IMG/VR virus record: IMGVR_UViG_2875703104_000004
Reading direction: 5' to 3' (one strand)
DNA from: a virus
Lineage: Duplodnaviria; Heunggongvirae; Uroviricota; Caudoviricetes
Length of the DNA: 64,000 bases
Numbering within the stretch: the stretch's first letter is position 1; each line of letters begins with the position of its first letter. This document shows positions 58,012-59,995 of this stretch, piece by piece. The notes under the pieces are model-generated. The model searched no databases. It worked only from the letters and a program-made list of their open reading frames with translations, and had not been told where the DNA came from. Position numbers and translations under genes: made by a program.

Positions 58012-58483
58012 ATGCGTAAAGTTTGTGCAGCCATTTTGTCCGCAGCCATCTGTCTGTCCGTATCCGGTGCGCCTGCATGGGCGTCTGAACATCAGTCCAC
58101 ACTGAGCACAGGGTATCTTCATGCCCGTACGAACGCTCCCGGCAGCGATAATCTGAACGGGATTAACGTGAAATACCGTTATGAGTTTACGGACACGCTG
58201 GGGCTGGTGACGTCATTCAGTTATGCCAATGCCAAAGATGAGCAAAAAACGCATTACAGCGATACCCGCTGGCATGAAGATTCCGTGCGTAACCGCTGGT
58301 TCAGCGTCACGATGTGCTGACCGGAAGTGATGACGGTCGCCACAGCAATACGTCTCTGGCGTGGGGGGCTGGCGTGCAGTTTAACCCGACCGAATCCGTG
58401 GCCATTGATATTGCTTATGAAGGCTCCGGCAGTGGTGACTGGCGCACTGACGGTTTCATCGTGGGGGTCGGTTATAAATTCTG
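58012..58483 (+). pseudogene. lom: Ail/Lom-family outer membrane protein gene with internal deletion and frameshift
   Basis: MRKVCAAILSAAICLSVSGAPAWASEHQSTLSTGYLHARTN..; after ..RNRWFSV the frame jumps to the C-terminal ..LTGSDDGRHSNTSLAWGAGVQFNPTESVAIDIAYEGSGSGDWRTDGFIVGVGYKF. Confidence 0.75.
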
Positions 58484-58510
58484 ATTAGCCAGGTAACACA
58501 GTGTTATGAC

Positions 58511-58538
58511 AGCCCGCCGGTTCAGGCGGGCTTTTTTG
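58511..58538 (+). terminator. rho-independent terminator after lom
   Basis: agcccgcc-ggttca-ggcgggct plus TTTTTT. Confidence 0.6.
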
Positions 58539-58548
58539 TGGAGTGGAT

Positions 58549-58968
58549 ATGGCAGCAGTAAAAATCTCAGGTGTGCTGAAAGATGGTGCGGGAAAACCAA
58601 TACAGAACTGCACTATTCAGCTGAAGGCAAAGCGTAACAGCACCACGGTACTGGTGAACACGGTGGCCTCTGAAAATCCGGATGAAGCCGGGCGTTACAG
58701 CATGGATGTTGAGCATGGCCAGTACAGCGTCACCCTGCTGGTTGAAGGTTTTCCGCCTTCACATGCCGGGACCATTACCGTCTATGAAGGTTCCAGACCA
58801 GGTACGCTGAATGATTTTCTTGGCGCCATGACGGAAGATGATGTCATGCCGGAGGCACTGCGCCGTTTTGAGCTGATGGTGAATGAAGTGGCACGTCATG
58901 CCGGAGCATCATCACAGAGCGCAGCGGCAGCAAAGAAATCCGAAACTGCTGCGGCATCATCGAAGAAC
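58549..58968 (+). pseudogene. stf: side tail fibre N-terminal fragment, joined in frame to a lom fragment
   Basis: MAAVKISGVLKDGAGKPIQNCTIQLKAKRNSTT.. runs to ..AAASSKNA, then lom sequence GINVKYRYEF. Confidence 0.6.
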
Positions 58969-59423
58969 GCGGGATTAACGTGAAATACCGTTATGAGTTT
59001 ACGGACACGCTGGGGCTGGTGACGTCATTCAGTTATGCCAATGCCAAAGATGAGCAAAAAACGCATTACAGCGATACCCGCTGGCATGAAGATTCCGTGC
59101 GTAACCGCTGGTTCAGCGTNATGGCGGGGCCGTCTGTNCGCGTGAATGAATGGTTCAGNGCNTATGCNATGGCNGGTNTGGCTTACAGCCGNGTGTCGAC
59201 NTTCTCCGGGGATTATCTCCGCGTAACTGACAACAAGGGGAAAACGCACGANGTGCTGACCGGAAGTGATGACGGTCGCCACAGCAATACNTCTCTGGCG
59301 TGGGGAGCTGGCGTGCAGTTTAACCCGACCGAATCCGTGGCCATTGATATTGCTTATGAAGGCTCCGGCAGTGGCGACTGGCGAACGGATGCATTTATTG
59401 TTGGTATCGGATACCGTTTCTGA
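58969..59423 (+). pseudogene. lom: lom internal-to-C-terminal fragment with many ambiguous bases
   Basis: ..KYRYEFTDTLGLVTSFSYANAKDEQKTHYSDTRWHEDSVRNRWFS.MAGPS.RVNEWF...DNKGKTH.VLTGSDDGR...GYRF; n at many positions between 59120 and 59290. Confidence 0.6.
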
Positions 59424-59574
59424 CAACAGACGCCGATTTATCTTCTGTAAATATTGTTATGATACGCAGGTTCATCCGCCTTATGGGGTGAACTGCGTTT
59501 GAGGAAACGTAAAGTTACACTGTCCTGAAGCCCGTGGCGTCACTGCTGCGGGCTTTTTTTATTGGTGGAAAAGT

Positions 59575-59995
59575 ATGACAGTAAAAATTTCTGGCGTGCT
59601 TAAAGATGGCACAGGAAAACCAGTACAGAACTGCACCATTGTGCTGAAGGCCAGACGGACCAGCAGCACGGTGGTGGTGAACACGGTGGCCTCTGAAAAT
59701 CCGGATGAAGCCGGGCGTTACAGCATGGATGTTGAGTATGGCCAGTACAGCGTCACCCTGCTGGTTGAAGATTTTCCGCCTTCACATGCCGGGACCATTA
59801 CCGTCTATGAAGGTTCCAGACCAGGTACGCTGAATGATTTTCTCGGCGCCATGACGGAAGATGATGTCATGCCGGAGGCACTGCGCCGTTTTGAGCTGAT
59901 GGTGAATGAAGTGGCACGTCATGCCGGAGCATCATCACAGAGCGCAGCGGCAGCAAAGAAATCCGAAACTGCTGCGGCATCATCGAAGAACGCAA
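59575..59995 (+). pseudogene. stf: side tail fibre N-terminal fragment, truncated
   Basis: MTVKISGVLKDGTGKPVQNCTIVLKARRTSSTVVVNTV..; similarity ends after ..AAASSKNA at about 59992. Confidence 0.65.

What the first reader, a model, noticed from the sequence alone, without database searches (positions are those of the whole stretch)
58012..59995. lom and stf remnants fused in alternating order, with a deleted lom and ambiguous bases
The order is lom (internal ~126-bp deletion, frameshift), stf N-terminus, lom internal-to-C-terminus fused in frame, then stf N-terminus again. A real arrangement would mean repeated recombination between the lom and stf regions of different prophages; more likely several prophage copies of this accessory region were stacked by the assembler.
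Basis: seen in the sequence. Interest (0 to 1): 0.4.

Follow-up and report, generated by a model that had tools for sequence, protein, structure and literature searches.

The report
Stacked prophage contigs, not a rearrangement
The alternating lom/stf pieces are an assembly artefact: pieces of two near-identical prophages, and of an unrelated island 1.8 Mb away, were laid end to end, so there is no biological rearrangement to explain.

Summary
The described order is in the sequence: lom with a 127-nt gap, an stf N-terminal stub, lom from an internal point to its C-terminus, then a second stf stub, with 11 N.

It is not a real arrangement.
- 57900-58307 and 58970-59993 are identical, apart from the N, to one prophage ("A", next to trp) of closed ST1193-type E. 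coli genomes. They overlap by 150 nt.
- The 662 nt between them (58308-58969) are 100% identical to a second prophage ("B", in the pot operon), about 195 kb away in the same closed genome.
- All 11 N fall exactly on the first 11 positions where lom of A and B differ (P about 2e-9). The same rule holds at 33442/33446/33480.
- Both stf stubs stop 149 nt after the last A/B difference, inside a 1,221-nt stretch identical in A and B. That is read-length behaviour.
- From 59994 the sequence is one 100% piece of the sat-iha island, 1.8 Mb away, and it starts 150 nt inside an IS30 remnant.
- None of the three junctions occurs in 5,426 complete E. coli genomes.
- The window holds at least eight more unmerged overlapping joints.

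The real genome most likely carries two intact J-lom-stf modules. Only "fused in frame" is wrong.

The parts
52600..58307 (+). Piece X. It holds the tail genes and J (J CDS 54252-57944) plus the lom 5' part (58012-58307). This stretch is identical in prophages A and B, so it is a collapsed two-copy repeat. It ends on the last base before the first A/B difference.
   Evidence: window = A = B from about 52600 to 58307, except one N at 56524; 57900-58307 is 100% A. A and B carry the same J protein accession, WP_001773905.1.
58158..58307 (+). The last 150 nt of piece X. They are exactly repeated at 58970-59119, the start of piece Z. This is the unmerged overlap of X and Z.
   Evidence: repeat D3: 150 nt, 100% identical; the two map to A 23833-23982 twice.
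58308..58969 (+). Piece Y, from prophage B. It holds the lom_B 3' end (58308-58484), the B intergenic region, and the stf_B N-terminal stub (58549-58969).
   Evidence: 100% over 662 nt to the second prophage of ST1193-type closed genomes; in Ec15103 that prophage lies between intact J, lom and a full 2,067-nt stf near potB. Pfam Ail_Lom positions 145-199 and phage_tail_N.
58970..59993 (+). Piece Z, from prophage A. It holds lom_A from codon 53 to the stop (to 59423), the A intergenic region (59424-59574) and the stf_A N-terminal stub (59575-59993). The first part, 59120-59291, is an A/B consensus.
   Evidence: identical to A 23833-24856 except 11 mismatches, which are the 11 N. Pfam hits.
59120..59291 (+). 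Eleven N. Each sits on one of the first eleven A/B differences in lom, which shows that reads from both prophages were merged here. 59120-59246 is the 127 nt 'missing' from lom copy 1.
   Evidence: 11 of 11 coincide, and they are the first 11 of 172 differing positions. P about 2.3e-9.
59994..60143 (+). 150 nt from the interior of an IS30 transposase remnant. This is the start of an unrelated piece (59994-64000) from the sat-iha genomic island.
   Evidence: 100% match to IS30; 59994-64000 is one 100% piece at MCJCHV-1 831235-835241, between sat and iha, whereas prophage A lies at about 2.644 Mb.
60144..61410 (+). IS3-family element (orfA 60197-60523, orfB 60520-61410) that interrupts the IS30 remnant in the real island. 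It is not inserted in stf. The left end at about 60144 is inferred.
   Evidence: annotated as IS3 family transposase with programmed frameshift. HTH_Tnp_1 and rve domains.

Best explanation
This is a sequence-assembly artefact. The source strain is an ST1193-like E. coli. It carries two lambdoid prophages, A next to trpA/ompW and B inside potB/potC, whose tail-tip regions are identical through J and the first 296 nt of lom.

Short reads could not separate the two copies.
- The shared part came out as one collapsed piece, X, ending at 58307.
- The weakly divergent middle of lom was merged into a consensus with N at each differing site (59120-59291).
- The clearly divergent parts came out as two allele-specific pieces, Y for B and Z for A.
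- Each allele-specific piece runs about 149 nt (read length minus one) into the next shared repeat and stops there.

The pieces were then written one after another, X-Y-Z, followed by a piece of the sat-iha island, without merging overlaps or marking gaps. That produces the apparent 'deleted lom', the 'stf-lom fusion' and the 'stf-IS30 fusion'.

Shown: the identity of each piece, the coincidence of the N with A/B differences, the geometry of the piece ends, the absence of the junctions elsewhere, and many similar joints in the window.

Inferred: the read length of about 150, the type of assembler or scaffolder, and that the real strain has two intact J-lom-stf modules.
For: 1; 57900-58307 equals A 23575-23982 at 100%. 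58970-59993 equals A 23833-24856 with 11 mismatches, all of them N. Removing 58308-59119 restores the reference J-lom-stf exactly.
2; 58308-58969 is 100% identical to prophage B. In Ec15103, B lies at about 2.856 Mb and A at about 2.661 Mb, and both have an intact 600-nt lom and a full-length stf.
3; the 11 N are the first 11 A/B differences (P about 2e-9).
4; in 33193-33838 the only 3 A/B differences are the 3 N (P about 2e-8).
5; both stf stubs end at A 24856, which is 149 nt after the last A/B difference and inside a 1,221-nt run identical in A and B. Z starts 150 nt before the first difference. The IS30 lead-in is 150 nt.
6; none of the three junctions is in 5,426 complete E. coli genomes; the stf-lom junction is absent from the GTDB representatives, JGI metagenomes, IMG/VR and GenBank phages; the chimeric ORF products are not on record among 153 billion gene positions.
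7; eight further adjacent duplications of 117-397 nt occur at joints in the window. Five are exact and three are 97.5-99.4% identical. Several are separated by a single N or by 21 N.
8; 59994-64000 is one 100% piece of a locus 1.8 Mb away.
Against: No reads, coverage data or assembly metadata are available, so the artefact is inferred from the sequence and from related closed genomes, not observed directly.

The source record could not be identified.

Piece Y starts only 5 nt before an A/B difference rather than 149 nt. This does not follow the simple read-length rule and depends on an unknown assembler.

The joints at 58307/58308, 58969/58970 and 59993/59994 carry no N spacer, unlike some other joints in the window.
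Confidence: 0.95

Rival explanations
1. The arrangement is real. Illegitimate recombination between prophages A and B inserted a B-derived lom'-stf' cassette into lom of prophage A. A later deletion then joined stf to an IS30 remnant.
For: The junctions have at most 1-3 nt of possible microhomology (cgg at 58970-58972), as illegitimate joins can. Lambdoid prophages of one host are known to recombine (general knowledge).
Against: This cannot explain N falling exactly on the A/B differences. It cannot explain both stf stubs ending at the same base 149 nt past the last A/B difference, or the 150-nt exact duplication flanking the insert. It cannot explain the direct link to an island 1.8 Mb away that begins exactly 150 nt inside a repeat, or the many similar stutter joints elsewhere. 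None of the junctions is in 5,426 closed genomes.
Confidence: 0.02
2. The sample was a mixture of two strains, or a metagenome, each with a different lom/stf allele at one prophage. On this view the N and the stacked pieces come from strain heterogeneity rather than from two paralogous prophages in one genome.
For: Mixed bases called as N and alternative alleles laid in series would also arise from a mixed sample (inference).
Against: Both alleles occur together, 100% identical, in single closed genomes of the lineage, such as Ec15103 and MCJCHV-1, so no mixture is needed. The window also holds the distinct non-shared parts of both prophages, B at 16661-33182 and A at 33193-50805. Either way the feature would still be an artefact.
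Confidence: 0.03

Closest known systems
Collapsed and mis-joined repeats in short-read draft assemblies of poly-lysogenic E. coli (a known class of assembly error; general knowledge)
   Same: A multi-kb repeat identical in two lambdoid prophages is collapsed. Ambiguity calls sit at the paralogue differences. Allele-specific contigs stop about one read length into the next repeat. Contigs are concatenated without merging their overlaps.
   Different: Nothing essential differs. This record is unusual only in leaving several joints unmarked, with no N spacer, so they look like gene fusions.
The J-lom-stf(-tfa) accessory region of phage lambda and lambdoid prophages
   Same: The gene families and their order are the same: J, an Ail/Lom outer-membrane beta-barrel (PF06316), then a side tail fibre with the PF08400 N-terminal domain.
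   Different: In the closed genomes each prophage has one intact lom (600 nt) and one full-length stf of about 2.06 kb. The doubled and truncated copies exist only in this record.
Real inactivation of side tail fibre genes, for example the stf frameshift of laboratory lambda PaPa or IS insertions in prophage tail genes (recalled from memory, not tested)
   Same: Superficially, a truncated stf sits next to IS sequence.
   Different: The sequence after 59993 is the interior of an IS30 transposase gene, not an IS end. It continues as one 100% piece of the sat-iha island, where the IS30 remnant really lies. There is no transposition junction.

Membership tests
Assembly artefact (collapsed paralogous repeat plus concatenated, unmerged contigs) | Ambiguous bases coincide with the differences between the paralogous copies | tested here: met
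   11 of 11 N in lom are the first 11 A/B differences. 3 of 3 N in 33193-33838 are the only A/B differences there.
Assembly artefact (collapsed paralogous repeat plus concatenated, unmerged contigs) | Each piece is collinear and identical with a separate locus in closed genomes of the same lineage | tested here: met
   X and Z match prophage A at 100% apart from the N. Y matches prophage B at 100%. 59994-64000 matches the sat-iha island at 100%.
Assembly artefact (collapsed paralogous repeat plus concatenated, unmerged contigs) | The junction sequences are found in no independent genome | tested here: met
   (5,426 complete E. coli genomes). (other collections). (chimeric products not on record).
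Assembly artefact (collapsed paralogous repeat plus concatenated, unmerged contigs) | Piece ends lie at a fixed, read-length-like distance inside repeats, and piece ends are duplicated at the joints | tested here: met
   Overhangs of 149-150 nt at four piece ends. Eight further adjacent duplications of 117-397 nt in the window. The start of piece Y is an exception.
Assembly artefact (collapsed paralogous repeat plus concatenated, unmerged contigs) | Read-level evidence: double coverage, mixed bases, and no reads across the joints | not testable with these tools
   No reads or assembly metadata are available, and the source record was not identified.
Real tandem duplication or inter-prophage recombination product | The novel junctions can be explained without reference to sequencing read geometry, and the sequence at the copies is unambiguous | tested here: not met
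   The N sit at paralogue differences. Both stf stubs end at the same base 149 nt after the last difference.
Ail/Lom family (Pfam PF06316) | A complete beta-barrel of about 199 residues in one reading frame | tested here: not met
   Copy 1 covers profile positions 1-100 and 145-199 in two frames. Copy 2 covers positions 53-199 only. Merging X and Z gives an intact 199-aa lom identical to WP_016238842.1 apart from three residues left ambiguous by N.
Prophage side tail fibre (Pfam PF08400 N-terminal domain plus long fibre) | N-terminal domain present | tested here: met
   Both stubs hit phage_tail_N over profile positions 1-131 of 134, with E about 1e-67.
Prophage side tail fibre (Pfam PF08400 N-terminal domain plus long fibre) | A full-length fibre of about 688 aa with its C-terminal part | tested here: not met
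   Both stubs stop after about 140 codons. The reference genes are 2,064 and 2,067 nt long.

The most novel reading that the evidence does not exclude
The strain really carries a lom'-stf'-'lom-stf' mosaic, made by illegitimate recombination between two co-resident prophages and then joined to the sat-iha island. On this reading the N are coincidental low-quality calls.
Probability: 0.02. Interest if true: 0.25.

Novelty: not a real feature. Interest (0 to 1): 0.03.

Why it matters
It has no biological importance. Its value is as quality control. This record is a chain of unmerged and partly unmarked contigs. Any gene fusion, truncation, tandem duplication or prophage adjacency read from it should be distrusted, including the other joints listed under Noticed in passing. 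The N-on-paralogue-difference test used here is a quick way to recognise such regions without reads.

Tried and rejected
1. I first read the structure as a simple recent tandem duplication of an 812-1,026-nt lom-stf unit. I rejected this because the two units are only 89-93% alike outside the 150-nt overlap and have different intergenic regions. Each matches a different prophage at 100%.

2. I considered an IS insertion truncating stf copy 2. I rejected this because 59994 lies in the interior of an IS30 transposase gene, not at an IS end, and the sequence is collinear with the sat-iha island.

3. Exact-pattern scans for the stf-lom junction in the GTDB representative genomes, JGI metagenomes and IMG/VR found nothing. 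Exact look-ups of the two chimeric ORF products also found nothing.

4. Locus L004 (prophage A of Ec15103) was fetched but never appeared in the script sandbox. Prophage A of strain 23AR0151 (L001) was used instead, so the A and B references come from two different closed genomes.

Full report
**Observation.**
- A lom gene starts at 58012. It matches Pfam Ail_Lom profile positions 1-100, breaks at 58307/58308, and resumes in another frame at profile positions 145-199, ending at 58484.
- An stf N-terminal domain (PF08400, E = 1e-67) runs from 58549 to 58969.
- lom sequence from profile position 53 to the stop codon follows (58970-59423).
- A second stf N-terminal domain runs from 59575 to 59993.
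- The piece missing from lom copy 1 is 127 nt (59120-59246).
- Eleven N lie between 59120 and 59291.

One detail is wrong. The stf-to-lom junction is not in frame. The stf frame reads ...KNAGLT and stops, and the lom frame is offset by 2.

**Where the pieces come from.**
The window was compared with 5,426 complete E. coli genomes. The surrounding prophage is 99.6% identical to a prophage next to trpA/ompW, called "A" here.

A local alignment to A gave these results.
- 57900-58307 is 100% identical to A 23575-23982.
- 58970-59993 matches A 23833-24856 with 11 mismatches, all of which are the N.
- The two stretches overlap by 150 nt in A. This is the exact repeat 58158-58307 = 58970-59119.
- Deleting 58308-59119 therefore restores the normal J-lom-stf order.

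The 662 nt in between (58308-58969) are 100% identical to a second prophage, "B", inserted between potB and potC. In strain Ec15103, B lies about 195 kb from A.

In the closed genomes both prophages have an intact 600-nt lom and a full-length stf of about 2.06 kb. They encode the same J protein, WP_001773905.1.

Several genomes that hold all pieces at 100% are described as ST1193 in PMC11488385: MCJCHV-1, MS10858, MS10860, MS8324 and AVS0096. The source is probably an ST1193-like strain.

**The decisive test.**
I aligned A with B.
- The two are identical from upstream of J to A 23982, which corresponds to window 58307. The break in lom copy 1 therefore sits on the last base before the first A/B difference.
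- The first eleven A/B differences are at A 23983, 24001, 24022, 24025, 24031, 24037, 24041, 24055, 24064, 24115 and 24154.
- Adding the offset of 35,137 gives 59120, 59138, 59159, 59162, 59168, 59174, 59178, 59192, 59201, 59252 and 59291. These are exactly the eleven N.
- The chance that 11 random positions all fall on the 172 differing positions among 1,024 is about 2e-9.

The same rule holds independently in 33193-33838, a lysis-region stretch shared by A and B. The only three A/B differences there are the three N at 33442, 33446 and 33480 (P about 2e-8).

The N are therefore consensus calls over reads from both prophages. The '127-nt deletion' in lom copy 1 is simply the part of lom_B that was merged into the A-side piece.

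**Geometry of the piece ends.**
- A and B are identical again for 1,221 nt from A 24708.
- Both stf stubs end at the same base, A 24856, which is 149 nt after the last A/B difference.
- Piece Z starts 150 nt before the first difference. This could be 149 nt, because the bases cgg at 58970-58972 fit either side.
- The next piece starts 150 nt inside an IS30 remnant.

This is how allele-specific contigs end when reads of about 150 nt can no longer be anchored. The read length is an inference.

**The right-hand junction.**
- From 59994 the sequence is the interior of an IS30 transposase gene.
- 59994-64000 is one 100% piece of the sat-iha island. In MCJCHV-1 it lies at 0.83 Mb, whereas prophage A lies at 2.64 Mb.
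- The IS3-family element at about 60144-61410 interrupts the IS30 remnant in that island. It has nothing to do with stf.

**Absence elsewhere.**
- Junction-centred 44-mers for the lom break and for the stf-IS30 join have no match in the complete E. coli genomes.
- The 81-nt stf-lom junction query is never covered beyond its stf half.
- The stf-lom junction is also absent from GenBank phages, GTDB representatives, JGI metagenomes and IMG/VR.
- The two chimeric ORF products are not on record.

**Context.**
The whole window is built the same way.
- A third prophage occupies 1-16660.
- The unique part of B occupies 16661-33182.
- A occupies 33193-59993.
- The island follows.

Unmerged overlaps appear as adjacent duplications at eight other joints. 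Their lengths are 117, 151, 117, 397, 155, 129, 129 and 157 nt. Five of them are exact and three are 97.5-99.4% identical. Some are separated by a single N or by 21 N.

**Verdict.**
This is an assembly and concatenation artefact (confidence 0.95).

A real recombination product (0.02) or a mixed sample (0.03) cannot be formally excluded without reads. Neither explains the position of the N and the read-length geometry as well.

The feature is not real, so novelty does not apply and interest is minimal.

Noticed in passing
window 589-821, 17838-18138, 21991-22223, 22896-23690, 23817-24120, 31091-31369, 33710-33988, 50649-50962: Eight adjacent duplications of 117-397 nt (five exact, three 97.5-99.4% identical), some split by a single N or by 21 N. 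They are unmerged overlapping contig ends, so the whole record is a chain of concatenated contigs.
   Followed up: partly
window 50806-52704: Three alternative versions of the tail L/K gene segment are stacked, separated by single N at 51537 and 52071. 50904-51536 equals 52072-52704 at 100%, and 51538-52070 equals prophage A at 100%. This is another A/B bubble laid out in series. In 52336-52598 the window switches from B-like to A-like alleles.
   Followed up: partly
window 1-16660: A third lambdoid prophage, 75-95% identical to B. Its J is followed directly by an stf N-terminus with no lom. That stf is cut at about 16660 and joined to the lysis/terminase region of prophage B, which is very likely another concatenation joint.
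   Followed up: partly
window 56524: A single N inside J at a position where the A and B references both have A. The A/B collapse rule does not explain it. It may reflect the third prophage's J, a strain-specific difference, or low quality.
   Followed up: no
window 17234, 17550, 17670, 17788, 23660-23663, 30945, 50803: Further isolated N inside prophage B sequence or near joints. They are presumably paralogue differences or joint markers, but were not checked against a second copy.
   Followed up: no
window 59994-64000: A fragment of the sat-iha pathogenicity island. It holds an IS30 remnant, an IS3-family element with a programmed frameshift, a second IS3-family remnant, an L-lactate permease remnant and an IS110-like remnant, all as in closed ST1193 genomes.
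   Followed up: partly
window 43147-43517: An imperfect (86%) repeat of about 210 nt whose two copies start 162 nt apart and overlap. It lies in the portal gene region and is also present in the closed reference prophage (A 10147-10517), so it is real and not an assembly joint.
   Followed up: no
whole window: There is a strong excess of G over C on the + strand (20,046 G against 15,434 C). This fits the fact that nearly all the late prophage genes are on one strand.
   Followed up: no
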